Source: Hormiphora californensis
Taxonomy: Eukaryota; Animalia; Ctenophora
NCBI GenBank assembly: GCA_020137815.1
Contig: CM035353.1
Coordinates: forward strand, 7,502,001 to 7,566,000
Reading direction: 5' to 3'
DNA: 64,000 nt
The position numbers and the translations under genes were made by a program. Below the pieces are notes generated by a model. It saw only the letters and a program-made list of their open reading frames with translations, was not told the origin of the DNA and searched no databases. Every line of letters starts with the position of its first letter. The first letter of the stretch is position 1. Below are positions 1,977 to 39,556 of the stretch, piece after piece.

Positions 1977-2011
1977 AACCAAATTAAATAAAGAAATTCT
2001 CCAGTCCATCA

Positions 2012-3187: not shown

Positions 3188-3511
3188 ACTATTATACGTC
3201 ATTATCATAGAACACACCATCAACTTTCAATATCGGTACGCTCAGTAAACCTCTATTATACCATCCCTTGGTGACACACATGTTGTGGGTCACTCACACA
3301 TATAACACTGTGTTTTTAAATGACTGAGACTGTTAAAATCAACATAAGTTGTGAATATTTTGCTCTGAAATTATTTATTGCACTTAAATTTCAGAAAAAT
3401 CGGTCGTTATATATATTACTGAATGAACCTGTAGCCCAAAAACCTCCTCAAACTTTGAGCGCTCAGATCTCTGCGCGATCACGCCAGGATCTTCGAAACA
3501 ATTGCTTCGAA

Positions 3512-3770
3512 GATCCAAACTGAATCACACTGAAAAGTTTGGTTGGTTCTTCAAATTAGCAGGCGCTCAGTTGTGAACGCCTGTAATTGTGCGCGGCGCA
3601 TTGGCACGTGCGACATGGGCGCTGGCAAGATGTTACTTGTTGCAACATGTAAAAGCCTGCCAGCGACCATGTCGCACGTGCCAATGTGCCGCGGACAACA
3701 GGCGTTCACAACTGAACGCCTGCTAATTTGAAGAACCAACCAAACTTTTCAGTGTGATTCAGTTTGGATC
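3512..3770. mobile_element. 259-bp near-perfect palindromic MITE inserted in left TIR
   Basis: GATCCAAACTGAATCACAC...GTGTGATTCAGTTTGGATC; absent from the mirror TIR at 7675-7685. Confidence 0.8.
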
Positions 3771-3984
3771 CCCTAGTCAGAATATAATACTTATTATTTT
3801 CAACAATACGTATTAAATACACGCGCAAATATGTATTTAATACGTATTAAATACGTATTATACGCCGAAAATACAGAAAAGCCGCGCATTTAGCAAGTGC
3901 TACCATCGCGAGCCGCACAACTTCCGACCCAATTTTAGGTCAAAAGCGCGTTACAGATACGACATACAGCCTCACCCTGCCACA

Positions 3985-6900
3985 TGTCCCAATACAGCTC
4001 TGCCGCGAAGTGCTACTGTGTTCCTCCGTCTTCTAAAACAGGTCCCTGTCCCAATACAGCTCTGCCTGCCACGAATTGCTACTGTGTTCCCCCGCCTTCT
4101 AAAACAGGTCCCTGTCCCATTACAGCTCTGCCACGAATTGCTACTGTCTTCCCCCGCCTTCTAAAACAGGTCCCTGTCCCAGTACAGCTCTGCCACGAAT
4201 TGCTACTGTGTTCCCCGCCTTCTAAAACAGGTCCCTGTCCCAATACAGCTCTGCCTGCCACGAATTGCTACTGTGTTCCCCCGCCTTCTAAAACAGGTCC
4301 CTGTCCCAATACAGCTCTGCCACGAATTGCTACTGTCTTCCTCCGTCTTCTAAAACAGGTCCCTGTTCCACTACAGCTCTGCCACGAATTGCTACTGTGT
4401 TCCTCCGTCTTCTAAAACAGGTCTCTGTCCCAATTCAGCTCTCCCACGAATTGCTACTGTGTTCCCCGCCTTCTAAAACAGGTCCCTGTCCCAATACAGC
4501 TCTGCCACGAATTGCTACTGTGTTCCTCCGTCTTCTAAAACAGGTCCCTGTCCCAATACAGCTCTGCCACGAATTGCTACTGTGTTCCTCCGTCTTCTAA
4601 AACAGGTCCCTGTTCCACTACAGCTCTGCCACGAATTGCTACTGTGTTCCTCCGTCTTCTAAAACAGGTCCCTGTTCCACTACAGCTCTGCCACGAATTG
4701 CTACTGTCTTCCTCCGTCTTCTAAAACAGGTCTCTGTCCCAATTCAGCTCTGCCACGAATTGCTACTGTGTTCCCCGCCTTCTAAAACAGGTCCCTGTCC
4801 CAATACAGCTCTGCCACGAATTGCTACTGTGTTCCCCGTCTTCTAAAACAGGTCCCTGTCACAATACAGCTCTGCCACGAATTGCTACTGTGTTCCCCGC
4901 CTTCTAAAACAGGTCCCTGTCCCAATACAGCTCTGCCACGAATTGCTACTGTCTTCCCCCGCCTTCTAAAACAGGTCCCTGTCCCAATACAGCTCTGCCA
5001 CGATTTGCTACTGTGTTCTTCCGTCTTCTAAAACAGGTCCCTGTCCCAATACAGCTCTGCCACGAATTGCTACTGTGTTCCTCCGCCTTCTAAAACAGGT
5101 CCCTGTCCCAATACAGCTCTGCCACGAATTGCTACTGTCTTCCTCCGTCTTCTAAAACAGGTCCCTGTTCCACTACAGCTCTGCCACGAATTGCTACTGT
5201 GTTCCTCCGTCTTCTAAAACAGGTCTCTGTCCCAATTCAGCTCTCCCACGAATTGCTACTGTGTTCCCCGCCTTCTAAAACAGGTCCCTGTCCCAATACA
5301 GCTCTGCCACGAATTGCTACTGTGTTCCTCCGTCTTCTAAAACAGGTCCCTGTCCCAATACAGCTCTGCCACGAATTGCTACTGTGTTCCTCCGTCTTCT
5401 AAAACAGGTCCCTGTTCCACTACAGCTCTGCCACGAATTGCTACTGTGTTCCTCCGTCTTCTAAAACAGGTCCCTGTTCCACTACAGCTCTGCCACGAAT
5501 TGCTACTGTCTTCCTCCGTCTTCTAAAACAGGTCTCTGTCCCAATTCAGCTCTGCCACGAATTGCTACTGTGTTCCTCCGTCTTCTAAAACAGGTCCCTG
5601 TTCCACTACAGCTCTGCCACGAATTGCTACTGTGTTCCCCGCCTTCTAAAACAGGTCCCTGTCCCAATACAGCTCTGCCACGAATTGCTACTGTGTTCCC
5701 CCACCTTCTAAAACAGGTCCCTGTCCCAATACAGCTCTGCCACGAATTGCTACTGTCTTCCTCCGTCTTCTAAAACAGGTCCCTGTCCCAATTCAGCTCT
5801 GCCACGAATTGCTACTGTGTTCCTCCGTCTTCTAAAACAGGTCCCTGTTCCACTACAGCTCTGCCACGAATTGCTACTGTGTTCCTCCGTCTTCTAAAAC
5901 AGGTCCCTATCCCAATTCAGCTCTGCCACGAATTGCTACTGTGTTCCTCCGTCTTTTAAAACAGGTCCCTGTCCCACTACAGCTCTGCCACGAATTGCTA
6001 CTGTCTTCCTCCGTCTTCTAAAACAGGAGGCGGGGAACACAGTAGCAATTCGTGGCAGAGCTGTAGTGCGACAGGGACCTGTTTTAGAAGACGGAGGAAC
6101 ACAGTAGCAATTCGTGGCAGAGCTGTATTGGGACAGGGACCTGTTTTAGAAGGCGGGGAACACAGTAGCAATTCGTGGCAGAGCTGTAGTGGGACAGGGA
6201 CCTGTTTTAGAAGGCGGGGGAAGACAGTAGCAATTCGTGGCAGAGCTGTATTGGGACAGGGACCTGTTTTAGAAGGCGGGGAACACAGTAGCAATTCGTG
6301 GCAGAGCTGTATTGGGATAGGGACCTGTTTTTGAAGACGGAGGAACACAGTAGCAATTCGTGGCAGAGCTGTATTGGGACAGGGACCTGTTTTAGAAGAC
6401 GGAGGAAGACAGTAGCAATTCGTGGCAGAGCTGTATTGGGACAGGGATCTGTTTTAGAAGGCGGGGGAACACAGTAGCAATTCGTGGCAGAGCTGTAGTG
6501 CGACAGGGACCTGTTTTAGAAGACGGAGGAACACAGTAGCAATTCGTGGCAGAGCTGTATTGGGACAGGGACCTGTTTTAGAAGGCGGGGAACACAGTAG
6601 CAATTCGTGGCAGAGCTGTAGTGGGACAGGGACCTGTTTTAGAAGGCGGGGGAAGACAGTAGCAATTCGTGGCAGAGCTGTATTGGGACAGGGACCTGTT
6701 TTAGAAGGCGGGGAACACAGTAGCAATTCGTGGCAGAGCTGTATTGGGATAGGGACCTGTTTTTGAAGACGGAGGAACACAGTAGCAATTCGTGGCAGAG
6801 CTGTATTGGGACAGGGACCTGTTTTAGAAGACGGAGGAAGACAGTAGCAATTCGTGGCAGAGCTGTATTGGGACAGGGATCTGTTTTAGAAGGCGGGGGA

Positions 6901-7323
6901 AGACAGTAGCAATTCGTGGCAGAGCTGTATTGGGACAGGGACCTGTTTTAGAAGACGGAGGAACACAGTAGCAATTCGTGGCAGAGCTGTATTGGGACAG
7001 GGACCTGTTTTAGAAGACGGAGGAACACAGTAGCAATTCGTGGCAGAGCTGTAGTGGGACAGGGACCTGTTTTAGAAGGCGGGGGAAGACAGTAGCAATT
7101 CGTGGCAGAGCTGTAGTGGGACAGGGACCTGTTTTAGAAGACGGAGGAAGACAGTAGCAATTCGTGGCAGAGCTGTATTGGGACAGGGACCTGTTTTAGA
7201 AGACGGAGGAACACAGTAGCAATTCGTGGCAGAGCTGTAGTGGGACAGGGACCTGTTTTAGAAGGCGGGGAACACAGTAGCAATTCGTGGCAGAGCTGTA
7301 GTGGGACAGGGACCTGTTTTAGA
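3985..7323. repeat. 61-62-bp tandem satellite, ~33 forward units then ~21 inverted units
   Basis: Unit TCTTCTAAAACAGGTCCCTGTCCCAATACAGCTCTGCCACGAATTGCTACTGTGTTCCTCCG; orientation switch at ~6027. Confidence 0.97.
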
Positions 7324-7327
7324 TTCT

Positions 7328-7419
<92 letters not shown>

Positions 7420-7450
7420 TTCTTCTTCTCTTCTTCTTCTTCTTCTTCTT
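7324..7450. repeat. (CTT)n microsatellite
   Basis: Direct reading. Confidence 0.97.
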
Positions 7451-7972
7451 GCAGCTGGTCCCTTCTACGAATTGCTGCTGTTTTTCCCGCGCTCTAGGTT
7501 CATCCAACGCGACTTTCAGCCTCAGCTTGGACGTTTAATGGCGCGGCTCAAGTGCTAAATGCGCGGCTTTTCTGTATTTTCGGCTTATAATACGTATTTA
7601 ATACGTATTAAATACATATTTGCGCGTGTATTTAATACGTATTGTTGAAAATAATACGTATTATATTCTGACTAGGGTCTTCGAAGCAATTATTTCGAAG
7701 ATCCTGGTGTGATCGCGCCCTGAGGTAGAGGGGGTGAGAATACGGCATCGATAAACAGGGAACTATCAGTGAAACACGATGAGACGTCACAAGCCTGACC
7801 AATCAAAGCGCCACGTTTGTGTCCTACAAAGTGCTAATCACACGCTCATTCAATGCTTTCATATGCTATTCAAACTCTCGCGCCCTACGTTTGATCTAAG
7901 TCAGCTGTTTTGATATTGAATCATTATCAATTGGGACGATTGGATCGTACACGTTTCTTTTGATTTTTGGGT

Positions 7973-7988
7973 GGCTTTGAAAAAAGCC
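7973..7988 (-). terminator. Histone 3' stem-loop (H2B copy 1)
   Basis: GGCTTTTTTCAAAGCC-ACCCA on minus strand, AAAGAAA downstream. Confidence 0.9.
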
Positions 7989-8029
7989 TTTTTGCCGTGT
8001 TTAGAAAACATGGCGGGAGTTTCCCCAGT

Positions 8030-8404
8030 TTACTTGGAGGTTGAGGAGGTGTACTTGGTAACAGCCTTGGTTCCTTCAGACACGGCGTGCTTGGCTAGCT
8101 CACCGGGCAAAAGCAGCCTCACGGCAGTCTGGACCTCTCTGGAGGAGATGGTCTTTCGCTTGTTGTAGTGTCCAAGTCGAGAAGCCTCTCCGGCGATCCT
8201 CTCAAAGATGTCGTTCACGAAGGAGTTCATGATGGACATGGCCTTGGAGCTGACTCCAGTGTCGGGGTGAACCTGCTTGAGGACCTTGTAGATGTAGATG
8301 GAGTAAGACTCCTTCCTCTTCTTCTTTCGCTTCTTGTCTCCTCCGACACGGCCGGCCTTCTTGCCTGCCTTCTTCTCGGCTTTCTTTCCAGAAACAGGGG
8401 GCAT
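8030..8404 (-). CDS. H2B: Histone H2B (124 aa)
   Basis: MPPVSGKK...[21 protein letters not shown]...[11 protein letters not shown]; first ATG at 8404. Confidence 0.98.
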
Positions 8405-8449
8405 CTTCAAGTTGATTTGGGTACAGCTGCAGTTAGTGAGTTATTTTGA

Positions 8450-8705
8450 CCCCCGAATCTTGCGGTATTTATACAAGGTCGGATTCTTTGAAGCTAGTGA
8501 ACCAATGAGAAGGCGCCCTTTGTAAGCAAGCCAGTAATAGAGACGCTCCACTCTAATTGGATATCCTGTTGTCACGTGTCCAAATTGGAGCATCCTTATT
8601 GGTTCTAGTTATGCAATTAGAGGTAGCCAATAGTGAAGCAGGGTTTTGAAATTTAGCTCTCTATTCTATCCGAAGTTAGCTCAGTAACAGTATATAGACC
8701 GGGGC
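8450..8705. promoter_or_regulatory. Bidirectional H2B/H2A promoter
   Basis: Opposed TATA boxes, CCAAT boxes, GTCACGTG; near-identical copy at ~15865-16120. Confidence 0.75.
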
Positions 8706-8768
8706 TATGAATACAGAACTCAATTCCAATCTTGAACTCAGCAACACAGTTTTCAACAACTCATCTGA

Positions 8769-9155
<387 letters not shown>

Positions 9156-9206
9156 ATCGTTTCTAACGATTTACTGCTCGTTTCTCTTCGGGGAAACTGG
9201 CAAAAC

Positions 9207-9222
9207 GGTGCTTTTCAGCGCC
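9207..9222 (+). terminator. Histone 3' stem-loop (H2A copy 1)
   Basis: GGTGCT-TTTC-AGCGCC-ACCCA, AAAGAAA downstream. Confidence 0.88.
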
Positions 9223-9624
9223 ACCCAAATCTAAAAAAGAAACTCTAGCATTGTATAAAAACTGTACGTTTCCTTGAACATGATCTTAGGAACTTCGAAC
9301 TCAATCTTTCCATGCCACCTTAATTTCCTTCGTACAAATTCACCATAGTAGTAGTGATTTAGAATGGTCTGAGAGCACAGAGCTGAGGGGAGCGTTTCAC
9401 ACTGGCTTTCAAATGGCGTCTTCTCATTGGCTTATACTTTACTCGCTACAACGAATCGGTCCCTGTATTACAGACATATCTAGACACACATACCTACAAG
9501 TGAACTATTGCAAGCTGATAAAGTAGAGAGAAAGATAAGGAATACCAATGTATCTCCCTTGTGCAGACACCCTGTCGCCAAATGTCTCCTTCTTATAGAG
9601 ATTACAAAGTTATGCTCGAATACG

Positions 9625-10984
9625 GGGCGTTATGCCTCCTGCCGGTATGCCTACCAGTGGTGGGCATACCGGCAGGAGGCAGAAGGGTACCCTAGCCGAC
9701 CGTTATGCCCACCAACCAAATCAGGTATATTGCGGCATAGTGGTGGTGGGCATACCGGTATCCTAGCCGGCCGTTATGCCCACCTGTTATGCCCACCTGT
9801 TATGCCCTCTGTATGTAATTAATGGCATCACACATTCGGAGATCTACACGCTAAGGAGTGGTACCAATTAGACGCTTAGCCTTCTCGTATCGTATAATCA
9901 AAGCGCGTTTGGCTTCACTTTTCAGGAAGAAATAAAAGTCTTGTATTCACTGCACAAAAATCTAATAATTAATAAATAACCACAGTTGTATTACTCTTCA
10001 AGTTCATCATATTCAAGGTCCAGTAATATAACCATACTTTCTAAGATACTGAGTAACATCGGTGTTATTATCATACTTTGAAACACACTGGAAAATCTTC
10101 TCTTTTATTCACTGCACAAAAAATCGATAAACTAATAAGCAAAGATGTACCACTCTTCATCATATTTAAGATCCAGTAATAAAAGCTAACTTCCTAAGAT
10201 ACTGAGTAAGGTCGTAAAGACGAGTGGTACCACTGTCAGGAAACGGAGAGGGCAGGTGTAGGTTTTGAAACAAAAAGTCATTAGCATCAGAGTACAAAGA
10301 CGAGAGAAGGTTTGGACGATACGTCATGGTTACGAATAGTTTGTTTCGGAGATGCTTATATACGAGTGATTGCATAACTTTTTACGAGCACTCATTCCTA
10401 AACTGACAATGTCAGTGACATCGTCGGATATCACCAATCAACCTGATTAGTGTCAGGTCCATGTTTCCTGATCTCCCTTGATGAGAAACTAGTCAGCTCA
10501 TAGCATTCCTGTTTCAGTCGTGTCCAATTATGTAGTATCAGATCCAGTTTCAGATCCAGTATCAGATCCAGTATCATGATGCTTACGAGCAATATAATGA
10601 AATTGAACGGATAGAACATGGGTAATAAGTCATAATTTTTATTGGTTTTTCATAATTTTTAAATTCTACCACAACTAAGGTAGTGTAAGGTTTACACACA
10701 GTTGTCGTATGATCTGTGATACGAGAAGGCTAAGCGTCTAATTGGTACCACTCCTTAGCGTGTAGATCTCCGAATGTGTGATGCCATTAATTACATACAG
10801 AGGGCATAACAGGTGGGCATAACAGGTGGGCATAACGGCCGGCTAGGATACCGGTATGCCCACCACCACTATGCCGCAATATACCTGATTTGGTTGGTGG
10901 GCATAACGGTCGGCTAGGGTACCCTTCTGCCTCCTGCCGGTATGCCCACCACTGGTAGGCATACCGGCAGGAGGCATAACGCCC
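9625..10984. mobile_element. Non-autonomous TIR element, ~267-bp TIRs
   Basis: 9625-9891 is the reverse complement of 10718-10984; internal TATGCC repeats; TTATGCTCG occurs a few nt outside both ends (possible 9-bp TSD). Confidence 0.8.
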
Positions 10985-11536
10985 GGCCACCTTATGCTCG
11001 CGTTGCCATGTTGACATAGTGAGGTGATGATAATTGATAATCACCTTCCGTAACATTTTAACACATTCCCATGTCCCATCTAATTAAGGGTATTTCTGTT
11101 ACACACATAATATCTTGATATGGCTTCGTCTAGAGATACGGTCATTGGTTAAACGGTGTCATGTGACAGAACGATCCCTTTAATAGATCATGAAAATGTT
11201 ACGGAAGGATGCTCCGGAGGTGATTATCATCACCTCATTACCATTTAGACCCCATTTTGTCACCTGTCTAGAGTTACTCACACGAGGGTTGTCACACCTT
11301 TCTGAATGAGTGCGTAATCAACAGCACTCTTCATGTATCCAGATATCAGTCAAGTTGTGCGTGGGCATTTTTTTTCTCTAGTGCAGTGAGCTTGCAATAC
11401 AGTGCAAGCATTTTCTACCCACTTCTAATTCTAAGCGCAATTTGTGTGACCTAAGCAGTGTGGAGTCTAGGATTAAATCCCAAAAGGATTAATTGGAATT
11501 GTTTCTTAATATCATGGTTTCTTTTTATATTTGGGT

Positions 11537-11552
11537 GGCTTTGAAAAAAGCC
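11537..11552 (-). terminator. Histone 3' stem-loop (H4 copy 2)
   Basis: Identical to H4 copy 1. Confidence 0.9.
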
Positions 11553-11596
11553 TTTTGCGGCACTGGGTAAGCCCAGTACCTGAGAATTCAGAGAAT

Positions 11597-11911
<315 letters not shown>

Positions 11912-11987
11912 TCAGTAGAAGATGTACAGAGAGTGTAGACTGTTCGGTGTTGAAAATGTGTTGGTTTGTGGAAATAATTCTCTGTTT

Positions 11988-12347
11988 ATTATGCCAAAAA
12001 CTAACAGAAATTAGTTGGCTGGAAAGGTGACCACTTTTGTTGTCAAACTGACACCTTTGCCATCTCCGGGTTATATCAGATCACTATCTTTCCCTCTGAT
12101 TTCTCTCTCTCTCTCTCTGTCTTGGGCAACAAGATACGTGTGGAGAGCGGTCCGTGGACAGAAGAAGAAAATGTAAATCACCTATATGAACCTGGAGATT
12201 ATGGAGATGATAATAAATATAAGCATGTACGGGTTGCAGAGTGCTATATATATGTTCAACCACAAGGTATGTTGTATAATCAATGAAACCGGGTTTATAT
12301 GTAGCGGGTGATTCGCTATATGGTATAAAACCCGACCCTCTCTGATT

Positions 12348-12438
<91 letters not shown>

Positions 12439-13463
12439 AAACTCCCTGATTTACCCCATCGATGATATCCGTAACCCGGGCCGGGCAAAGGTGTCAGTTT
12501 GACAACAAAAGTGGTCACCTTTCCAGCCAACTAATTTCTGTTAGTTTTTGGCATAATTGGGTATATTTTTGGTATTTTCTGATGTGAAATACGAAGTAAG
12601 ACACGTCTGGAAGTAGCAGAATGTGTAAAGACCGTCAGGAATCGCTAAAACACGAAAATTTTGATTTCGACGTCATTATGACGTCATAGCGTGACGTCAC
12701 GACGTTATAGCGTCATGATAGTGAAGTAGTATTATCAGGCTTACCTAGATAAAGATGCTGACCAAGTTTGAGATCGATTGGACAAGAATTGAGGTCGCTA
12801 TGGCGAAAAACGCACTATCGTCATATCTATTTTCATACAGTCTTAAAACTTCAGACGCGATTTAAGACCCTTGGAAATAGAGTTTCACAAATTCGCAATA
12901 TAGTTTCTTAAAGTTTAGACGATTATCTTTCATAAGTGTGGTCTCCGTTTTCCAATCAGAAGCCGTCTTCAGGGTGTAAACTGAGCTCAAAGAAATTTGG
13001 TCGATTTGAAAAATGTCTTAACTTTATGACAGTTTTTAAGGACGTTCTGGTTGGACCTAGAACATGAAAACCGTCCAATAACACAATTCAAACGATTATC
13101 TTTTGAATGATTCAAACGAGAAGTGTCTATCTCTTGTAGTTTTTCCAGAAAATTGTCTGCAAATTGTGTAAAAAAGCGTCTATATATATGTATGTATGTA
13201 TGTAGACCAGGGACATTTATTGCTTTTTTCACCATGTCATAACTCTGAAACTAAAAGAGATAGAGACTTGCCCTTTTGAACTCCAGTAGATCTAGTTTAC
13301 GTGACACTGTATACCAAATTTCAGACCGATTGGTGCAGTGGGGGCTTCGCTATGGGCGTCGCAAAATGCCATTTTTGGCTAAAAACTGAAAAAACTTATT
13401 ACTGCTTTCTGGCACGCGCGGCTGGGGGAGGTGGTGGTCACCTTTGCGCTTGCCAGCGCAGTG
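11988..13463. mobile_element. Asymmetric non-autonomous element, family B, inserted in H4 TATA box
   Basis: Absent from paralogous spacer at ~18340; second copy at 33690-34918 in opposite orientation; terminal IR 11988-12557 with (CT)n spacer. Confidence 0.92.
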
Positions 13464-13677
13464 ATATAAGAATTTCTACAAGCACGTTAATAACTTTGGA
13501 TGCTATTGCAGCCCCATTTTGTGCTCTCTATCCCATAACTGTCTCAAACTATCCGAAGACTCTTCCTAGCTGGCCAATTAGCTTCGAGCTCTCTTACTTT
13601 ACAGCCAATGAGGTTCGCTTACGTGTCATGCTCTCTCTGGTTCAAAGCCGTTGGGCGGGAAACTTGTGAAGTATTAA

Positions 13678-14148
<471 letters not shown>

Positions 14149-14193
14149 TTCTTAGGTGTTCTCAAGTTGTTACCGTAAGGTAACAACGACAAC

Positions 14194-14209
14194 GGTGCTT
14201 TTCAGCGCC
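14194..14209 (+). terminator. Histone 3' stem-loop (H3 copy 1)
   Basis: GGTGCTTTTCAGCGCC-ACCCA, AAAGAAA downstream. Confidence 0.88.
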
Positions 14210-15440
14210 ACCCAAATCAATTAAAGAAATTGTAATAGATGCATCGCATTGCAGAAATTTGTATTTCTAGAACGGCTTCAATGATTTATACTTTGACTCC
14301 TCTCTTCATTGAATTTATACACCGTATTACACTGTAATACTATAACAGTTCAGGTCCGTACACCATCCTATTCAATGGAAAAACTATTCAGTGAATATAC
14401 ATGCAAATAGTGTGGTTTAGGACCACGATTAAACATGGGGCTGAGTGTAAATAGAGTTTAGATTGTAAGGCAGGCTTGGATTATGAGAAATTGGGCGGGA
14501 GGTCGCAACAGGAGAAGTGAATGGGTATTTGTGCTAAGCACACTGTACCTTCAACACACAGGATATAAGTTTGGGTACTGCAGTTAATATAAGTTTGGGT
14601 ACTGTTCGTTTGTAAACATCGCCAGATGCACCCTGGTTGCACCCGCGAGGGAGTTGGCAGCACGTACAGGGTATAACACGGCGTCATACACATTTCTATT
14701 CGGAATTTCTATCTGGAATTTCTATTTGGAATTTCTATCTGGAAGAACCGCACGTGCAGATGCACCGCGGCTCAAATTCACGTGCGAGATTAAAGAGAGA
14801 GACGCCCATTAACGTTATCAGTTTGTCTCTGACTCTATCTGGAAAACGCACACGTGCAGATGCGCCGTGCCGCGGCTCAAATTCACGTGCGTGTTATACA
14901 GATTCTGACAAAATACGAGCAGGGAATTCCAGGTGGAAATGTGTATGACGGAATGTGTATGACGGAATGTGTATGACGGAATTACAGCGTGACGTGCCCA
15001 AACCCGCGAGGGAGCAATTCGTGTCGCGAATCCTTTGCATCTGTGCAGAAGTATCAAGTGTACTACATAAAATAATAAAAGCAGTCAAGGTGTTCTCCAA
15101 AACACTAAACAGGTATTAGCATTAGAGTGGATTACAAGGGTGCCTGTAGTAGAGAATACGGTATAGTATCAGAGCGCCAGATTGCCAACGGTGTGTGTCT
15201 TGTATTATAGTGCTAATCGTGCGTGGATTCAATGATTTCATTTGCTGTAGGCCAAATCCCTACGTTTGGCACACACACGCCAGTAAACCGTATTGGTCAG
15301 ATACTGTATAATTAAGATACCCACTACGAGCTGTTAGTACAGCTAGATTTTAAATGAATAAAATGGGACGATTGGATCGCACATTCTTTGGTTTTGGGTG
15401 GCTGAAAAGCCTTGCCTTTAAACACGCGGGGTTCTCCCGT

Positions 15441-15815
15441 TTACTTGGAGGTTGAAGAGGTGTACTTGGTCACAGCCTTGGTTCCTTCAGACACGGCGTG
15501 CTTGGCCAGCTCACCGGGCAAAAGCAGCCTCACGGCAGTCTGGACCTCTCTGGAGGAGATGGTCTTTCGCTTGTTGTAGTGTCCAAGTCGAGAAGCCTCT
15601 CCGGCGATCCTCTCAAAGATGTCGTTCACGAAAGAGTTCATGATGGACATGGCCTTGGAGCTGATTCCAGTGTCAGGGTGAACCTGCTTGAGGACCTTGT
15701 AGATGTAGATGGAGTAGGACTCCTTCCTCTTCTTCTTTCGCTTCTTGTCTCCTCCGACACGGCCGGCCTTCTTGCCTGCCTTCTTCTCGGCTTTCTTTCC
15801 AGAAACAGGGGGCAT
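15441..15815 (-). CDS. H2B: Histone H2B copy 2
   Basis: One V/I difference from copy 1 (DTGISS). Confidence 0.98.
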
Positions 15816-16183
15816 CTTCAAGTTGCTTTGGGTAGTACAGCTGCAGTTAGTGAGTTATTCTGACCCCGAATCTTGCGGTATTTATACAAGGTCGGATTCT
15901 TTGAAGCTAGTGAGCCAATGAGAAGGCGCCCTTTGTAAGCAAGCCAGTAATAATGAGACGCTCCACTCTAATTGGATATCCTGTTGTCACGTGTCCAAAT
16001 TGGAGCATCCTTATTGGTTCTAGTTATGCAATTAGCGGTAGCCAATAGTGAAGCAGGGTTTTGAAATTTAGCTCTCTATTCTATCCGAAGTTAGCTCAGT
16101 AACAGTATATAGACTGGGGCTCTGAATGCAGAACTCAATTCCAATCTTGAACTCAGCAACGCAGTTTTCAACAACCCATCTGA

Positions 16184-16570
<387 letters not shown>

Positions 16571-16619
16571 ATCGTCTAACGAATTACCGCTCGTTTCTCT
16601 TCGGAGAAACTGGCACAAC

Positions 16620-16635
16620 GGTGCTTTTCAGCGCC
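16620..16635 (+). terminator. Histone 3' stem-loop (H2A copy 2)
   Basis: GGTGCTTTTCAGCGCC. Confidence 0.88.
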
Positions 16636-17595
16636 ACCCAAATCTAAAAAAGAAACTCTCAAATCTCTCCAACACCCCTCTCGCTATCCTCCATACGTTT
16701 CATTTCCCCAATGCGTCAATTGAGCTGCACTGCAAGGATCCCGAGCGGTAGTAAGGGGTTTACAGTTATATCTGCACGCCAAACGATGTTTGTGATATCT
16801 ACACCTGAGTAAAATCAAGGTCGCACGGCGACCGAGATCGATATCACATTATTCGCGGAGCGAAAATAGTAATGGATCCAAGCTCACACACAGATCTCAC
16901 ACAAAAAGGGTCATTGGTCAAACAAACACTTGAATAACAATTGTTGGATGAAATGCAGAGAGATAGTATTGAACTGTTGGTAACGAAGTTACCCCTCCCT
17001 TGCCGGCGTGCGAAGCGCGCCAAACGAAGGCCAGACAGAGTGTGAGATGTCTTCGATACCAAGTTGAACTGTGGTTCATGAGCGCCAGACTAGCCGGTGC
17101 CATGGCTCCGGCTAGTCTGTTGGCGTCCAAGTTTAGACAGAGAGCGTTGTTCGTTTTACACAAACTGTTATCATGCCATTTTATTGTGTTTCCAGTGATA
17201 TTTACAGTGATTTACACAAATCTCAAGCTCCAATTATAGACGTACACTTACGTCCAGTGCACGTCCCAATAGACCGGTGCAATTTGTTCGCATGTGGCAT
17301 GCGTCCATTTGAGCCAGCGGGGTCATATCAAATCCCCCAGTCCCCACCCTCTAAAACAGATTTATGGCGCAAGATAGAAGTCAGTAAGAAAAGTGACTGT
17401 CATCGAGACGGTGAGAGAAAAACCGACACGTTTTATTTAGAACCAATCTGTTTAGATGAGGTGAAAAGATCTCGATCGAAAGTAAGTAGGGTGGAGAGAG
17501 AGAAAATGAGAGGAAGGAAATGAGAGATAGATGGCGAATAAGTATTGCAATGTTTCATCGATAAGTAAATCGGGATTTCTTTAGTTGATTTAGGT

Positions 17596-17611
17596 GGCGC
17601 TGAAAAGCACC
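17596..17611 (-). terminator. Histone 3' stem-loop (H3 copy 2)
   Basis: GGTGCTTTTCAGCGCC on minus strand. Confidence 0.88.
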
Positions 17612-17656
17612 GTTGTCGTTGTTACCTTACGGTAACAACTTGAGAACACCTAAGAA

Positions 17657-18136
<480 letters not shown>

Positions 18137-20058: not shown

Positions 20059-20871
20059 TTAGTCTGGTGTGGAGGTTGTTGTAGCATGTCGGGTTGGCAT
20101 AACATTAACAAGTATTGGCGGAGCTGTGTTATATTTGTTTGGTGCAAACTCAGCAATCTTCGTTATATCTCGAGCCATGTCTAACAGTTCCTTGATTTCA
20201 ACCATTGTTTTCCTCGCATATTTCACCTGTATTTCCTCCAACACCTTCCCAAACGCATCCTCCCTCTCCTTCTCTTCCCCAACATCATCCGCCAAGCTTT
20301 CCGCTGTCTTTTTAATTCTCAGATCTTCCATCGTTTCATCCATACCCTTGTGAAACTCATTGGATACCATCACGTTCTGTTTAGCCATATCTATAACATC
20401 CATCACCTCAAGATCGGCAACCATAAGATCGGGGTTCGCTAGATAGGTATTAAGGAACCAGTCTTCTCGGATGGCGGGGGTATAAGGAAGTAGGTGCAGG
20501 TCGTAATCATGGTTCAGGGTACACTGACGAGCAGTCGTTAAAGAATTAACGCAGCCACCTGTTATACCCTGCTGGAAATAGTCAAGTCCACAACTCCGTA
20601 CACGATTTGCATACACCGGCAACCCGATATCATCCCACAGTAGGCGTTGGACAGCTAATGCTATGTTAGTTTCACTTTCAATCGGGGGTAAGGTAAACTG
20701 AGGTATCGGGGGCTGTATGTACTCAGACTCCCCTAGACCTGGAAGTGGCTTTAAATAATAATCATCGGTATCGTCAGAGGTACGGGTATTATCGGGGCCC
20801 TTTTCTTGGTACACACTGTCAGCGACAGGAAGGTGGCAAGAAAAGAAAATTAACAAGAGAATCAACCGCAT
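20059..20871 (-). CDS. Intronless 270-aa protein of unknown function, probable signal peptide
   Basis: Longest ORF in window, ATG start, MRLILLLIFFSC hydrophobic N-terminus, non-repetitive composition. Confidence 0.65.
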   Translation of the reverse strand: MRLILLLIFFSCHLPVADSVYQEKGPDNTRTSDDTDDYYLKPLPGLGESEYIQPPIPQFTLPPIESETNIALAVQRLLWDDIGLPVYANRVRSCGLDYFQQGITGGCVNSLTTARQCTLNHDYDLHLLPYTPAIREDWFLNTYLANPDLMVADLEVMDVIDMAKQNVMVSNEFHKGMDETMEDLRIKKTAESLADDVGEEKEREDAFGKVLEEIQVKYARKTMVEIKELLDMARDITKIAEFAPNKYNTAPPILVNVMPTRHATTTSTPD

Positions 20872-22138: not shown

Positions 22139-25100
22139 TCATATCCCTCTTTTAAGGATTTCCGTGTACTCTCTCATCAGTGTATTACCCTCCTCGGTTA
22201 GTTTTCTCATTTCAGCCTGGTGTCTCTCTGTCTGCTCTATGTGCCGTTTGTTCTCCTCCCGCATTTTCTGGTAGACCCTTATCAGTTCCTGGGTGACGTG
22301 TTTGTCAGGTCGGGCTGGTCTCTTCACAGCTGTACTCGATATGGTGCTGCTGCTGCTGGTGGTGGTGGGATTCATTTCTACTTTGGATGTGTTGCTATCC
22401 GTGGTACCGATATTGGCGTGCAGAATTGCGTAGTAACTTGGCTCCGGGAGTACACCTCCTTTCTGCATTGTTCTCAGATACTCGTTTTTAACCTTTGCCA
22501 CCTTATCTGTCACTGCCTTCCCAGTCAAGTTTAGCCCATAGTCCTCGTTCATTTTCAGAGCGATTAGCCTGTAGGGTAACACGCTGGTAATGGTATGACA
22601 TAATTTAAAACTCATTTGCAGCTATAAAACGCACGCATGTAGGGGAAGGGGGGCAGGGTACGCCATGGTCATTGGCCATAGTACTTTTCAGGTAATGGTC
22701 CCAGTACTTTTCATGATTAGACAAAAACTATGACTTTTTGGCCTAAAAACCGAAAAATGTTCCAAGCTTCGCTATCGCTTCGCCCGCGCCCAATCTATTC
22801 AAATTTGCAAATGAAAAGTTTCAAAACTTCCCCTACAGCTGTATGCCAGATAAAACAGCTAATAATCCCATATATTACCGGTTGATATGAGACTGGTTCC
22901 CGTTTGCTTCCCGTTCTGTCTCAAAGGTATCTCCGTAGTAGAGCTCACAAAGCTTCTTAGTGGCTACTTCTGGCCACTGGTACCTAGTTCCCCTGAAACA
23001 CGCGTGCAGTGAGAGGAATCATTGGAATGAATCTTAACCTGCTGGAATCCAAACACTTGTACTACTGGGCAATTTCTGATTTGCCGCATACGGCGTCTAG
23101 ACGGCGTCGCAACGCCGTCTAAACGGCGTCTAGACGGTATACCGTCTGGACGGGTTTCGGTGAAATCAGCTAAAAACGGTACCGAAATTGCTTGCGACGG
23201 GTTATAGACGGTATCAGACGGTCTCTAGACGGGTTATAGACGGTATCAGACGGTGTTGCGACGGTATCAGACGGTCTCTAGACGGTGTCTAGACGGTACC
23301 GTCCCGGCGTCTGGACGGCGTCTGGACGGTGTCTAGACGGTATCCGTCCGAAGTTGAGACGGCACGTCTGAAAATTGTACCAGACGTTGAGACGGACTTT
23401 TAGAACTCCGTCTGTATTTCAGACGGAGTTTTAAAAGTACGTCTCAACGCAGTCTAAAGGAAAATCGATGAAAGTACCGTCTAGACAACGTCTCAACTGA
23501 AACCGGTCAACATACCGTCTAAACAACGTCTAGACAACGTCTAAACAGAATCTCGCGATTCAGTTTCAAATACCGTCTAGACAACTTCTCCAGCAATTTC
23601 GATAAGAATACCGTCTAAACAACGTCTAGACAACGTCTCAAATAATGATGTCTAGACTCGACCGTTTTCGAAGACCATTCTGGATTACCCATGCCAGTTG
23701 GAATTAGTGGTAGATGTGTGCCTATTGAATGAAAATTACACATGTGTTTAACCCAGCGGGGGGAACTCAGGTTCTTCGTGCCAGCTGAGTTCTTCGAGCT
23801 CAGTCCCGTTGCCGTGGACCTGGTTGGCTGATGGTCCAGTGATTACGGTCAAATCACACCGGCTCTCTCCCCAATCTTGGGGAGTAAACTTTGCCAGAGA
23901 CCTTGCCGAACTCAACTATGGCACCGAGCTCTTGCAGTGCGGCTGGTCCCTGCTGGGATTTGGTTCGGCGGTCGATTGATGAGCGGTTGGTTGACGATTG
24001 ATATCAGTCGTTGATCGATCGTTTGTCGGTCGGTCGTCGGGCTGAGTCTTAGTGAGGATCCCGGTTGAGCTGATAATCTCACCCCAGCCAGTAACCTTGT
24101 TACACATGGCAACCCATGATTTGTAATCACCGAGGGCCTCTGCCTACTAGGCATGCCTGATGACCCTTCGGCTGTCTCCCATTTAATTATGGGGGTAAAT
24201 TCTACGCCAGAGAACTAGCCTCCCTCAATTATGGCAACCCATGATTTGTAATCACCCGGCAGCTGTAGCCTTTAAAACAGCCCTCCTGTCCAACATCCCA
24301 TATTGGTCGGACGGAGGTTACCTTCTCTCGCAAAAATAGGGGTTATTCCCCTGGGGAACCTCTGCCCAAATTTTTGCCACATACTACCTTTGCAATATAT
24401 CTAGAACAATCCTCCTCACTAACAAACAGATCAAGCAACACACTTGATTTGGTAAAATTCTCCAAACTAATAGCCAAAAGTAACCTATTCGATTAAACCA
24501 TCCCCAACCATCCCGACCTGAAAGAAGTAGCAAACCACAGGGCAAGAATCGCTACGGCCGGGGAATTCCAACAAAACCACATCATAAGGGACCCACGATT
24601 AAGGTAGGGCAGGTCTGGGCCATAACAAAGGGCCACCTCCGCCGTATGGCAAGTAATTACCCCGCAATAGTGCAACCCCTGGGAGCTGATAATTTGCCAA
24701 ATGCTCACCAGAAGTTTACATAAGCGTTTTTCATGCTTATCTGTGCTTGCTAAGAAATTAGCTGTCCGGACCCCCAGGTTGCATGCTGATAAGTACTGCT
24801 AGCGGTTTTGACCAAAGACCTGAGGTGTGATAAGATATTTCAGCCGTCACCGATTAGATGGTGAACCCACGGTATTGTCATATTCGGCAACCCACCTACC
24901 TCTACAGCTCCCTGGAGCAGTAGTAACCAAAGACCAGTCTGTGAGACAGGTAAATTCCATCCATTGTCCTGACAATATAGGTATGTCAGTCTAATATTAG
25001 ATTCACTGTATCAAATACTCTTCTTGTGATGCCGGCGAAGGTTCGAGGGAAATGTTGAGCTTGCTCGACAAAATACCAGGACCCAAACCGGAACAACATC

Positions 25101-26277
25101 AACATTATCCCTACGTGTGGGGGACGGTGGCGAAGAGTGATATTAATATAGGTTGTCTGCCGACCATTGTGGGGCAGTAAAGTGGGAGGAATGACGGGCG
25201 GTGCAAAACACACACACACACACACATGTGTTTAACCAGCACAGTCGTACCGCGATGCTCGGGGACGGGAAAGGGGTTATCCTCCCGGTAATTTTCGTAC
25301 CCAACTTCAAATAAATCGAGGTCCAACTGTACATCATTTTCATTATCAAAAAGGCACACATTCATTGTAATACAACTGTGAGATACTGTCTATGGCTGAT
25401 ACTATCAGTGATAGATAGTGTCGGTTATGAGACGTTGTTTAGACGGTATCTGTATCGGATTCGCTTAAGACGTTGTCTAGACGTTGTTTAGACGGTATTC
25501 GTATCGAAATTGCTGGAGAAGTTGTCTAGACGGTATTTGAAACTGAATCGCGAGATTCTGTTTAGACGTTGTCTAGACGTTGTTTAGACGGTATGTTGAC
25601 CGGTTTCAGTTGAGACGTTGTCTAGACGGTACTTTCATCGATTTTCCTTTAGACTGCGTTGAGACGTACTTTTAAAACTCCGTCTGAAATACAGACGGAG
25701 TTCTAAAAGTCCGTCTCAACGTCTGGTACAATTTTCAGACGTGCCGTCTCAACTTCGGACGGATACCGTCTAGACACCGTCCAGACGCCGTCCAGACGCC
25801 GGGACGGTACCGTCTAGACACCGTCTAGAGACCGTCTGATACCGTCGCAACACCGTCTGATACCGTCTATAACCCGTCTAGATACCGTCTGATACCGTCT
25901 ATAACCCGTCTCAAGCAATTTCGGTACCGTTTTTAGCTGATTTCACCGAAACCCGTCCAGACGGTATACCGTCTAGACGCCGTCTAGACGGCGTTGCGAC
26001 GCCGTCTAGACGCCGTATGCGGCAAATCAGAAATTGCCGTACTACTGAATCTTATAACCACTATAACAGACATAATCCTGAAGCCCGCATCCCCCCTATC
26101 TTGAATGATTCAGTGAATCCCCCCCCCCCCCCCCCCAATACCGAATCTCCTCATTATATAATCCTCATTATATCCTGAATCCTCTCAAATGAATCCTTAC
26201 CGTTTCTGGGGTGGTGGGGCTGTGATAGAAATCTCAACAGGTTCGTTAACTACATCCAATATCTCTCCCTTCATCAT
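22139..26277 (-). CDS. Myb/SANT-like (trihelix, Harbinger ORF1/MSANTD-type) protein, 3 exons, ~206 aa
   Basis: Exons 26277-26201, 22992-22879, 22568-22139 with GT-AG and matching phases; YQWPEVATKKLCELY...LIALKMNEDYGLNLTGKAVTDKVAKVKNEY...YYAILHANIG, C-terminal coiled coil. Confidence 0.75.
23068..26038. mobile_element. MULE/foldback-like non-autonomous transposon in intron 1 of Myb/SANT gene
   Basis: ~570-bp TIRs built of TAGACGG/CCGTCTA repeats; perfect 9-bp TSD GTACTACTG (23059-67, 26039-47). Confidence 0.92.
23754..25221 (+). mobile_element. Retroposon-like insert with highly structured 5' region and (CA)n tail
   Basis: 16-bp flanking direct repeat ACACATGTGTTTAACC (23738-53, 25222-37); CA tail; no recognisable RT ORF. 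Confidence 0.7.
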
Positions 26278-27600: not shown

Positions 27601-30600
27601 TTACACAGAGCCTAGACTTTGTTTTCGTCTGGCCACTGTGATCTTCAGGTACGCAACGAAGTCTCTGTTGACGGCGATGTAAAGTAGAGGGTTCGCTGAA
27701 AAGAGAGAGGCAGTGTGTTAGACAAATGATAGTGCTGCACTGCTGCAGGCAGGCCCATTTAAGGGGGATGGGGCCATCAAATGGACCATGCTTGTTGGGC
27801 TTTGGATTGGTGACCTTGAACTGTCGCAGTTTTGAGGATGTGGCGCGGATGCGCGTGTAAGAATAAGAAGTACAGCTTGTCAGCAGGAGTGGCGGAACCG
27901 GGAAGGGCTAGAGAGGTGTCGCGCGCAGTTGATAAAGGGCGGAAAATACGCTGACGATTGATACTTCCTATTCTAAAACGCGCACCCGCGCCACATCTTC
28001 AAAACTGCGACACAGCACGGGAATGTGATTTGTGCAGATAATGATAGGGGGCTTGTTGTAAGTTTGTGTCACGGCACCTACCGAATGATCCACAGAAGTA
28101 GGCACAGATCCGAAGTCTCTCTAACCACATTGGCCCATGGTCTACACGGTGTATGTAGGTCCAGAGGTGTGTGACCATACTGGGTGACCAGGTCAGTATG
28201 GTCACCGAGCACAGCCCAACTACTGTTATTATCCCTGGAGAGGGGGGGGGGGTGTTAATAATACATACCTCTGTAAGCTCCCTGTAAATTACAGTGTACC
28301 CGGCTCCTCTGGTACCTTCAAGGTGAGGTACTGTACCCGATATTACAGTGTAATATCGGGTATAGTACCTCGCCTAGAAGGTACCAGGGGAGTAGTATAT
28401 ACTGCAACAATAGGTACGAGGGGAGGGGGAGGTATTATATTAGGGGTATTATAGTACCTCGTAGGTGTGGCTGTCTCCTTGGCAAAGAACAAATTTTAGA
28501 AAAGTCAGAGGCTCGTCTTTGAAGTGCTTCGACCACCTGCAACGATAAAAATCATGTAAATATATTGGGTAGAAAATAATGACATATCTGATTTTACAGA
28601 TTGATTTTACAAAAAAGTCAAACAAATTGTTTTTAGAACGCTACTATTTTCATGAATTCATGACCCCACTATAACTGTGGTCTGTGAGACCAATCACATA
28701 TATTGGTAGTACTAGTACCTCCTTTTCCTGCCTTATCTTGGTCCTTGCCAGAAGACAGAGGAGTATGTTAGCACCAAGAATTAGGATGAAGGGAAGAAGA
28801 CCAAGAATAGTGGATAGAAGGAGGCGTCGTAGTGGGGAGTTCATGTGTCGTACAATACACATTGCAATATCTGAGGGGAGGGGAGTTCATGTGTTGTACA
28901 ATACACATTGCAATATCTGAGGGGAGGGGAGTTCATGTGTCGTACAATACACATTGCAATATCTGAGGGGAGGGGAGTTCATGTGTCGTACAATACACAT
29001 TGCAATATCTGAGGGGAGGGGAGTTCATGTGTCGTACAATACACATTGCAATATCTGAGGGGAGGGGAGTTCATGTGTCGTACAATACACATTGCAATAT
29101 CTGAGGGGAGGGGAGTTCATGTGTCGTACAATACACATTGCAATATCTGAGGGGAGGGGAGTTCATGTGTCGTACAATACACATTGCAATATCTGAGGGG
29201 AGGGGAGTTCATGTGTCGTACAATACACATTGCAATATCTGAGGGGAGGGGAGTTCATGTGTCGTACAATACACATTGCAATATCTGAGGGGAGGGGGAG
29301 TTCATGTGTCGTACAATACACATTGCAATATCTGAGGGGAGGGGAGTTCATGTGTCGTACAATACACATTGCAATATCTGAGGGGAGGGGAGTTCATGTG
29401 TCGTACAATACACATTGCAATATCTGAGGGGAGGGGGAGTTCATGTGTCGTACAATACACATTGCAATATCTGAGGGGAGGGGAGTTCATGTGTCGTACA
29501 ATACACATTGCAATATCTGAGGGGAGGGGAGTTCATGTGTCGTACAATACACATTGCAATATCTGAGGGGAGGGGAGTTCATACTTCATGTGTCGTACAA
29601 TACACATTGCAATATCTGAGGGGAGGGGAGTTCATGTGTCGTACAATCACATTGCAATATCTGAGGGGAGGGGAGTTCATGTGTCGTACAATACACATTG
29701 CAATATCTGAGGGGAGGGGAGTTCATGTGTCGTACAATACACATTGCAATATCTGAGGGGAGGGGAGTTCATGTGTCGTACAATACACATTGCAATATCT
29801 GAGGGGAGGGGAGTTCATGTGTCGTACAATACACATTGCAATATCTGAGGGGAGGGGAGTTCATGTGTCGTACAATACACATTGCAATATCTGAGGGGAG
29901 GGGAGTTCATGTGTCGTACAATACACATTGCAATATCTGAGGGGAGGGGAGTTCATGTGTCGTACAATACACATTGCAATATCTGAGGGGAGGGGAGTTC
30001 ATGTGTCGTACAATACACATTGCAATATCTGAGGGGAGGGGAGTTCATGTGTCGTACAATACACATTGCTATTATATCTGAGGGGAGGGGAGTTCATGTG
30101 TCGTACAATACACATTGCAATATCTGAGGGGAGGGGAGTTCATGTGTCGTACAATACACATTGCAATATCTGAGGGGAGGGGAGTTCATGTGTCGTACAA
30201 TACACATTGCAATATCTGAGGGGGGGGGGAGTTCATGTGTCGTACAATACACATTGCAATATCTGAGGGGAGGGGAGTTCATGTGTCGTACAATACACAT
30301 TGCAATATCTGAGGGGAGGGGAGTTCATGTGTCGTACAATACACATTGCAATATCTGAGGGGAGGGGAGTTCATGTGTCGTACAATACATGCATTGCTAT
30401 TATATCTGAGGGGGGGGGGGGGGAGGGAGTGAAGTTGGTATATTCCAACGAATATTAACATGGGGGGGGGGGAGGGGGAGTATGGTATATTCTAAAACGA
30501 GAAAGATTTGTTGTGTAACCTCTTAACTCACTGTCAGGTCAATACTCTGACAGCTACAGCTAACTCAACATGAAGTTTCGAAACAATATTTCCCTAAAAT

Positions 30601-38534: not shown

Positions 38535-39556
38535 TAGTAAGGGAATTTTAGTATATTTTCTCAGCAAAATTTTTAACAAGCTAATTTTTTCACCAATAGG
38601 TCCGGATAGGTGTCTAGTATCACCAAAAAAAAGTACACGATAATCGGAAGTGCGCATGCGCACTGAGCGCGCAAGAAGTAAACACATGTAAATACATGTA
38701 TTTCTAGCCTGGCACGAAAACCCAAAAACCATCTTAGGAGACGAGTAGAGAAAAAATCAAGGGCACTAGATTGTGTAGCGTCCTCGCATTAGTGGGGGTA
38801 GGTGCTGGAATTAAGTCTCTATCTCATCTGGTTAATTAGATAATTGGATAATTAGATATGCACATAACCGTATTTTGGCTATATGGCTATAGCCACTTAG
38901 GAATGGTTTAGAGACTTTTCATTGGTGCCATTTTGTTCAGAAACAAAATTCAATCTAAGAGTTGTGGAAAAATTTAGAGCCTATCTCTTACCGTTTTGGC
39001 GTAATTTACGGTCAAAGAAGGCCAATTAACTAATTTTTTGGCATTTTCGGCTGATTTGGCATACTTTGACCGCAAATAACGCCAAAACGGTAAGAGATAG
39101 GCTCTAAATTTTTCCACAACTCTTAGATTGAAATTTTTTTCTGAACAAAATGGCACCAATGAAAAGTCTCTAAACCATTCCTAAGTGGTTATAGCCATAT
39201 AGCCAAAATACGGTTATGCGCATATCTAATTATCCAATTATCTAATTAACCAGATGAGATAGAGACTTAATTCCAGCACCTATCCCCACTAATGCGAGGA
39301 CGCTACACAATCTAGTGCCCTTGATTTTTTCTCTACTCGTCTCCTAAGATGGTTTTTGGGTTTTCGTGTGAGGCTAGAAATACATGTATTTACATGTGTT
39401 TACTTCTTGCGCGCTCGGCGCGCGTGCGCACTTCCGATTATCGTGTACTTTTTTTTGGTGATACTAGACACCTATCCGGACCTATTGGTGAAGAAATTAG
39501 CTTGTTAAAAATTTTGCTGAAAACTTGGCCCTTTTTTTACTAAAATCCCCTTACTA
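38535..39556. mobile_element. Academ-like ~1-kb palindromic element
   Basis: TAGT...ACTA termini, GTA duplicated on both sides, ~480-bp arms. Confidence 0.82.

What the first reader, a model, noticed from the sequence alone, without database searches (positions are those of the whole stretch)
23738..25237. 1.47-kb retroposed insert whose first ~500 nt look like a complex structured RNA with a duplicated module
Seen: a 16-bp TSD and a (CA)n tail that matches the ACACA start of the target, typical of target-primed reverse transcription. The 5' part is a run of hairpins (GAACTCAG/CTGAGTTC, TGGACC/GGTCCA, GTGATT/AATCAC). The G-U helix is flanked by two diverged copies of CGGCTnTCTCCC[loop]GGGRGTAAA..GCCAGAGAnCTnGCCnnnCTCAAnTATGGCA (~23860-23922, ~24168-24235), whose stems are kept while loops differ; a GAG/CTC pseudoknot is possible. 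I found no hammerhead, HDV or twister consensus and no RT ORF. Removing the insert rejoins an 88-codon minus-strand ORF (MNVCLF...VKHMC|NFHSIG...DVV). Inference: a long non-coding mobile RNA, possibly carrying a new ribozyme, IRES or nuclease-resistant fold.
Basis: partly seen in the sequence, partly recalled or inferred. Interest (0 to 1): 0.75.

Follow-up and report, generated by a model that had tools for sequence, protein, structure and literature searches.

The report
Non-coding retroposon with ADAR-scarred helix
This 1.47-kb insert is a young copy of a repeated, protein-less jumping element, likely of a comb jelly and likely copied through RNA by a borrowed enzyme; its long hairpin is nearly half G-U pairs, likely because host RNA editing was written back into DNA, while its repeated short RNA motif matches no catalogued family and has no shown function.

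Summary
The insert is real. It has a 16-bp target duplication and an (AC)n tail, no coding trace, and an empty site in another run. It is one young copy of a multi-subfamily element sitting in a Mutator-like foldback transposon. The 'rejoined ORF' is chance. Only the 49-bp helix is strongly structured (22 G-U, no mismatch); the rest folds little better than shuffles. The duplicated module is real (74% alike), and its parts recur near the 3' end. Covariation is thin: two compensatory pairs. No known ribozyme was found. Some subfamilies lack module 2 or the helix. The main new result is the helix. In diverged copies, 6 of 6 listed single changes switch A/G opposite U. Surviving adenines mostly follow G. 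Reading G-U as A-U restores an 11-nt repeat. This fits ADAR edits fixed by retrotransposition, different in each lineage. The scan noted a similar ADAR fossil on other DNA of this genome (e1-10582599, unchecked). No partner LINE was found, so 'internally deleted LINE' is the likely class but membership is unproven.

The parts
23059..23067 (+). Left 9-bp target duplication of the host foldback element
   Evidence: Same 9 bases at 26039-26047
23068..23641 (+). Left terminal inverted repeat of a Mutator-like foldback transposon, built of 11-nt units
   Evidence: 574 nt, 5 differences from the right arm
23738..23753 (+). Left target-site duplication (16 bp; 12 bp if the first ACAC is counted as tail)
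   Evidence: Identical to 25222-25237; empty site in run X6
23754..23811 (+). Head of the element: two predicted hairpins (23760-23777, 23784-23804), possibly closed by a 7-bp helix that starts at the first base
   Evidence: Hairpin probabilities 0.95 and 0.98; closing helix about 0.05-0.6 by context; contigs of X3 and X5 start exactly at 23754; a variant with 6 bases put in behind 23770 would lengthen the first hairpin
23860..23923 (+). Module 1: hairpin + TAAA, then GCCA...TGGCA segment
   Evidence: a subfamily changes the 6-nt loop and keeps the stem (loose ends)
23952..24053 (+). 49-bp helix with 22 G-U pairs and no mismatch; likely ADAR-edited hairpin fixed in DNA
   Evidence: variants; skipped in one subfamily (joint 23939 to 24064)
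24087..24111 (+). Second GCCA...TGGCA segment, around a GTAAC/GTTAC hairpin
24106..24131 (+). 26-nt direct repeat, copy 1 (copy 2 at 24231-24256), bracketing the 125-nt unit that holds module 2
   Evidence: D16; joints that skip or repeat this unit
24169..24236 (+). Module 2
   Evidence: skipped by joint 24162 to 24254
24619..24651 (+). Fourth GCCA...TGGCA segment
   Evidence: in another subfamily this sequence stands before 23811 (loose end)
25151..25181 (+). Third hairpin + TAAA sub-motif, with a C-G to G-C swap in the stem
   Evidence: 13 of 16 positions, 0 of 3000 shuffles
25208..25221 (+). (AC)7 tail, continuous with the ACAC of the target
   Evidence: Only such run of 6 or more units in the window
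25222..25237 (+). Right target-site duplication
25465..26038 (-). Right terminal inverted repeat of the foldback element
26039..26047 (+). Right 9-bp target duplication of the foldback element

Best explanation
The insert is a young copy of a repeated, non-coding element with a target duplication and an (AC)n tail, likely copied from plus-strand RNA by the reverse transcriptase of an unidentified LINE, and its 49-bp G-U helix is likely a once A-U-rich hairpin whose adenines were edited by ADAR and written back into DNA. Steps. (1) Shown: a separate insertion into a foldback transposon, with an empty site elsewhere, an exact 5' boundary and several subfamilies. (2) Inferred: target-primed reverse transcription, primed by pairing of the (AC)n tail with the ACAC of the nicked target. 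(3) Inferred: origin as the 5' and 3' ends of an ORF1-less (RTE-type) LINE without its coding part, later reshuffled by template switching at short shared motifs. (4) Inferred from four statistics: each passage through RNA lets ADAR turn some helix A into I, reverse transcription fixes it as G, pairing survives as G-U, and lineages fix different sites (a one-way ratchet). (5) Least certain (about 0.4): the repeated hairpin + TAAA and GCCA...TGGCA motifs are inherited binding sites for the partner's protein or the ribosome, not catalysts.
For: Duplication and tail. Empty site, contigs starting at 23754 in two runs, subfamily joints. This copy differs from all laid contigs at only two listed places, 24069 and 24884. 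No coding trace; no tRNA or Rfam head. The helix folds on the plus strand only (-67.2 vs -10.5 kcal/mol). All 8 changes listed inside the helix for two diverged X3 contigs keep pairing: 6 single A/G switches opposite U, 0 C/U switches opposite G (p 0.01), and one double change U-A to C-G; 3 switches have G in the window, 3 in the variant. Surviving paired A follow G in 9 of 11 cases against 9 of 22 for the G of G-U pairs (Fisher p 0.03); ADAR disfavours a 5' G in all metazoans studied, a ctenophore among them (PMC9989829, passages). Reading G-U as A-U gives 33% GC and an 11-nt period (1 of 20000 shuffles) with repeated 8-mers; reading it as G-C gives 78% GC and no repeated 8-mer. ORF-less two-part LINE derivatives are reported from RTE, Ingi, Vingi and R2 (PMC5786205, passages).
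Against: No partner LINE found, so steps 2-3 rest on anatomy. No unedited source of the helix found. Only 7 of 14 differences of one contig and 2 of 4 of the other were listed; the unlisted ones could break the pattern. About 5% of random mixed readings give the same periodicity (1090 and 1003 of 20000), and the arm as it stands is already periodic (84 of 20000). Nine of 22 G-U guanines also follow G, several of them a G of a G-C pair, which ADAR should disfavour. Selection for pairing with ordinary transitions can also give G-U-rich helices. The statistics come from one helix and are not independent. Contig depth is no copy number. RNA contigs (X15 over 23797-24164; X13 and X19 from about 24230) show presence only.
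Confidence: 0.6

Rival explanations
1. Same retroposon, but the G-U helix arose by ordinary transitions under selection to stay paired as RNA while avoiding a perfect DNA palindrome; ADAR played no part.
For: No mismatch in 49 bp and one true compensatory change; the helix is shared by contigs whose flanks do not align (records 8 and 9), so it seems kept by selection or moved as a unit; G-U guanines often follow G.
Against: Predicts both kinds of switch; 6 to 0 was seen. Does not explain the 5' G bias of surviving A or the repeat restored by the A-U reading.
Confidence: 0.2
2. One reading: the duplicated module, or the head, is a new ribozyme, IRES or exonuclease-resistant fold on which the element depends.
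For: Exact 5' boundary; sub-motifs recur beyond chance; two compensatory pairs in the module hairpin; 8 transversions to 4 transitions suggest an old duplication with kept blocks; RTE, Ingi and R2 elements often carry 5' ribozymes; an unchecked note reports an ORF1-less LINE in this genome with six copies of an uncatalogued fold (e1-10648715).
Against: No Rfam match; no hammerhead, twister, hatchet, pistol or HDV core in simple scans; modules are internal, module 2 is skipped in a subfamily; no ORF to translate; weak folding signal and no clustering of differences.
Confidence: 0.12
3. The element is moved by Penelope-type machinery, like a retrozyme without a hammerhead, or is a passenger amplified with the foldback DNA transposon.
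For: Unchecked notes report ribozyme-less non-coding repeats with Penelope footprints in this genome (e1-10648733, e1-10607138); the host foldback element is itself repeated.
Against: No tandem monomers, terminal repeats or palindromic ends; clean duplication plus tail; contigs branch exactly at 23754 and the empty foldback exists, which implies other flanks.
Confidence: 0.08

Closest known systems
ORF-less two-part non-autonomous LINEs: RIME, NARTc, RTESINE, WALLSI3, R2 SIDEs (PMC5786205, passages; PMC3414825, abstract and outline)
   Same: No ORF, target duplication, simple-repeat tail, defined 5' end, no Pol III head
   Different: 1.47 kb (longer than these, by recall); reshuffled repeated motifs; no known 5' ribozyme; partner LINE not identified
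ADAR-type A-to-G hypermutation of Rous-associated and avian leukosis virus (PMC12925331, passages)
   Same: A to G in an inverted-repeat region of a reverse-transcribed element; there nearly 50% of A, here 22 of 33 if the A-U reading is right
   Different: Here a cellular non-coding element; the changes are fixed in the majority subfamily and differ between lineages; the helix stays fully paired
Ribozyme-headed LINEs: twister variants of Perere-3 (PMC8501958, passages), HDV-like ribozymes of R2 and L1Tc (listing)
   Same: Exact 5' end next to the target duplication, structured head
   Different: No twister, HDV or hatchet core found
Metazoan retrozymes (PMC7229834, search listing and start of abstract only)
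   Same: Non-coding, non-autonomous, RNA-structured
   Different: No hammerhead, no tandem monomers; LINE-type tail and duplication

Membership tests
ORF-less two-part non-autonomous LINE | Target-site duplication and simple-repeat 3' tail | tested here: met
   empty site
ORF-less two-part non-autonomous LINE | No coding capacity | tested here: met
   Six-frame translation; Pfam 0 of 3 plus-strand frames of 24236-25206; protein search with 1 of 3 frames, longer proteins only, no hit
ORF-less two-part non-autonomous LINE | Many copies with a defined 5' end | tested here: met
   Contigs start at 23754 in X3 and X5; subfamily joints; copy number not measured
ORF-less two-part non-autonomous LINE | 5' and 3' parts homologous to an autonomous LINE | tested here: inconclusive
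   None in the window or in the collections scanned; the host genome was not available
tRNA-, 5S- or 7SL-headed SINE | Small-RNA-derived Pol III head | tested here: not met
   ARAGORN 0 genes; no Rfam match
Known self-cleaving ribozymes (hammerhead, HDV-like, twister, pistol, hatchet) | Conserved core and fold | tested here: not met
   Rfam to E 10; relaxed HDV descriptor 0 on plus, 4 loose hits on minus; recalled core motifs 0 of 5 on both strands; hatchet core as in PMC6561176 (passages) not found at the head by eye
Retrozyme / Penelope-like | Hammerhead and tandem or terminal repeats of the unit | tested here: not met
ADAR-hyperedited double-stranded RNA fixed in DNA | A/G change on one strand in both arms | tested here: met
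   22 G-U, 0 A-C; 6 of 6 listed single switches are A/G opposite U; direction inferred
ADAR-hyperedited double-stranded RNA fixed in DNA | Spared A enriched after G | tested here: met
   9 of 11 vs 9 of 22, p 0.03; modest
ADAR-hyperedited double-stranded RNA fixed in DNA | Unedited source sequence found | tested here: inconclusive
   No match above 12 nt elsewhere in the window; rest of the genome not searchable
ADAR-hyperedited double-stranded RNA fixed in DNA | Editing seen in RNA against DNA of the same animal | not testable with these tools
   Only contigs; no matched raw reads
IRES or Xrn1-resistant RNA | Cap-independent translation or exonuclease stop | not testable with these tools
   Needs assays
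Mutator-like foldback element (host) | Long terminal inverted repeats and 9-bp duplication | tested here: met
   family label recalled; transposase partner not tested

The most novel reading that the evidence does not exclude
An actively amplifying non-coding retroposon evolves by an RNA-editing ratchet: ADAR edits made in its RNA become inherited sequence at each cycle, turning a captured transposon hairpin into a fully paired G-U helix, and its head and repeated modules are an uncatalogued functional RNA class, shared with an ORF1-less LINE, that defines its 5' end or recruits the LINE protein.
Probability: 0.25. Interest if true: 0.8.

Novelty: new variant of a known kind. Interest (0 to 1): 0.53.

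Why it matters
RNA editing is normally not inherited. Here a repeated family seems to carry different fixed edits in different lineages, so one alignment of all copies could show direction, neighbour preference and rate of ADAR-driven change in an animal genome. My paper searches (listings only, plus passages of PMC2873906 and PMC12925331) showed DNA editing by APOBEC in retroelements and ADAR-type change in retroviruses, but no paper on ADAR edits fixed in a cellular non-LTR family; most subscription papers were not searched. The repeated motif may also mark how a long non-coding RNA borrows LINE machinery.

Tried and rejected
Host genome not available. Pattern scans for relatives: viral contigs 2 hits in unrelated phage coding DNA, then 0 and 0; metagenome contigs 8 stretches in 7 loci, none with the flanking module, judged chance; prokaryote genomes 0 and 0. 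Look-ups in the scan's notes by sequence and relatives: nothing; by words for an edited SINE: nothing. Rfam: 4 + 4 weak matches, all below gathering score; the best (MIR6136, 38.5 of 99 bits) only reflects the long hairpin. The 88-codon ORF: chance. Coding remnant: none (weak search). Twister, hatchet, pistol, hammerhead and HDV readings tried by eye and by simple scans and dropped. A tRNA-like head cut by RNase P was considered; the closing helix is unstable in context and ARAGORN finds nothing. A spliced-leader head, as noted for other elements of this genome, was dismissed by recall only (the head is G/C-rich), not by a tool. A wider array of homologous units: of 55 pairs of segments only 2 align beyond chance, so only the sub-motifs are claimed. 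Bacterial promoter scan uninformative. PMC5753468 was opened and held nothing relevant. Runs with small shares that I did not lay are not used. Supplements were not read.
Full report
Setting. The window is animal DNA: histone H1, H2A and H3 genes by Pfam, H2B and H4 by translation, many simple repeats. Runs that hold the insert are one organism and marine metagenomes. Unchecked notes of the scan call the genome a comb jelly; I did not test that.

Two nested elements. The insert lies between 574-nt inverted repeats (23068-23641, 25465-26038; 5 differences) flanked by a 9-bp duplication: a young Mutator-like foldback element (label recalled). The insert has its own identical 16-bp duplication and an (AC)7 tail that runs into the target's ACAC. 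In run X6 two contigs pass from 23753 into the right flank, the empty site. Contigs of X3 and X5 begin exactly at 23754, as expected if copies share that start and differ upstream. Among the places listed at 10% share, this copy differs from all laid contigs at two, 24069 and 24884, so it is recent. X3 contigs have similar depth at the 5' end (2155, 2138, 2186) and the 3' end (1634, 1706), a weak hint that most copies are full length; depth is no copy number. The 88-codon ORF of the empty foldback is chance (140 of 500 shuffles; 24 of 73 slices).

No coding trace, no known RNA. Pfam finds nothing in the three plus-strand frames of the 3' two thirds read through with X; one frame searched against longer proteins gave no hit (weak). 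Rfam gives only sub-threshold matches, ARAGORN none. Simple scans for five ribozyme cores, recalled from memory, are empty; a relaxed HDV descriptor gives 0 hits on plus and 4 loose ones on minus.

How structured is it? The 516-nt z of -6.4 is due to the helix (z -9.8 on plus, 0.3 on minus). The head gives z -2.1 and the four other parts -0.9 to -1.4 on plus; two of them fold as well or better on minus.

The module. Modules 1 and 2 are 74% alike with 4 transitions and 8 transversions; the differences are not significantly clustered (p 0.18). The first hairpin is well supported (1.00 and 0.86). Between the copies it has one C-G to A-U swap and one U-A to U-G change (read from the sequence), and a subfamily changes its loop only. 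A third hairpin + TAAA stands at 25151-25181 with a C-G to G-C swap; a pattern built from modules 1 and 2 scores it 13 of 16, reached by 0 of 3000 shuffles (I had seen it by eye first). GCCA...TGGCA segments occur at four places against 0.18 expected (0 of 3000 shuffles reach 4; the copies are partly related by duplication). The second half of the module has no stable nested fold, and the proposed pseudoknots have several competing registers that two copies cannot separate. Subfamilies skip the helix (joint 23939 to 24064, depth 531), skip module 2 (24162 to 24254, depth 476) or reorder units (24105 to 23918, depth 710; sequence from about 24636-24665 standing before 23811). The element is thus a reshuffled mosaic in which neither the helix nor module 2 is required. 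An internal self-cutting module would destroy the full-length template, and an IRES has nothing to translate, so I read the motifs as inherited binding sites or relics. An unchecked note describes an ORF1-less LINE of this genome with six copies of an uncatalogued fold and a hatchet-like start (e1-10648715); I could not compare sequences, and our head lacks the hatchet core described in PMC6561176 (passages).

The helix. 49 bp, 22 G-U, 11 A-U, 16 G-C, no mismatch, stable on plus only. Two diverged X3 contigs match just the helix, with 14 and 4 differences, of which 7 and 2 were listed (8 places). All keep pairing: six single A/G switches opposite U (three with G here, three with G in the variant), none C/U opposite G (p 0.01), and one U-A to C-G double change. 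Surviving A follow G in 9 of 11 cases against 9 of 22 (p 0.03); ADAR disfavours a 5' G across metazoans, and repeats are its main targets also in a ctenophore (PMC9989829, passages). Reading G-U as A-U gives 33% GC and an 11-nt period (1 of 20000 shuffles; two repeated 8-mers), like the 11-nt units of local foldback arms; reading it as G-C gives 78% GC and none. Against this: 5% of random mixed readings do as well, the arm as it stands is already periodic (84 of 20000), many G-U guanines follow G, no unedited source was found, and half of the variant differences were not shown. I had this reading before consulting the notes. A note on other DNA of this genome reports an ADAR-edited foldback piece retroposed into DNA (e1-10582599); it agrees but is unchecked and not independent support. 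One RNA run holds the helix region as contigs (X15, 23797-24164) without A to G differences; this shows presence only.

Comparison. It works like ORF-less two-part LINE derivatives, reported from RTE, Ingi, Vingi and R2 (PMC5786205, passages; PMC3414825, abstract), but homology to a partner LINE, the defining feature, is unproven: all scans for relatives failed. It is not a Pol III SINE, a retrozyme or a carrier of a known ribozyme by the tests run. The helix resembles ADAR-type hypermutation of avian retroviruses (PMC12925331, passages). Genomic editing surveys that I saw concern APOBEC (PMC2873906, passages).

Verdict. Observation partly confirmed; interpretation partly supported. New variant of a known kind. 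Confidence: RNA-mobilised non-autonomous family about 0.85, ADAR origin of the helix about 0.65, new catalytic or IRES-like module about 0.12. Interest 0.53.

Noticed in passing
window 23059-26047: Young Mutator-like foldback element: 574-nt inverted repeats of 11-nt units, 9-bp duplication, 1487 nt when empty; repeated in the laid runs.
   Followed up: partly
window 748-18124: Histone gene cluster (H4, H1, H2B, H2A, H3, with a second H4, H2B and H3), partly duplicated and inverted.
   Followed up: no
window 3985-7323: 62-bp satellite in two opposite arrays meeting near 6030, a 3.3-kb palindrome, followed by (TTC)n.
   Followed up: no
window 25193-25203: The last bases before the tail resemble, by recall only, the antisense of a universally conserved stretch near the 3' end of 18S rRNA; 11 nt, may be chance; Rfam saw nothing.
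   Followed up: no
window 24069: This copy has G where all laid contigs have A, at a place predicted to face C24078; an A-C mismatch is a preferred ADAR site (recalled). One case only.
   Followed up: partly
window 23735-23746 and 24101-24109: The target site begins with a 10-bp palindrome, and a similar TTACACATG occurs inside the element; any target preference is untested.
   Followed up: no
window 20059-20871 (minus): 270-codon ORF with a hydrophobic start and no Pfam match.
   Followed up: no
window 38535-39556 and 50307-51247: Two more hairpin-shaped elements (92% and 98% self-complementary).
   Followed up: no
window 28834-30418: 46-bp tandem array, 34 copies, 97% alike.
   Followed up: no
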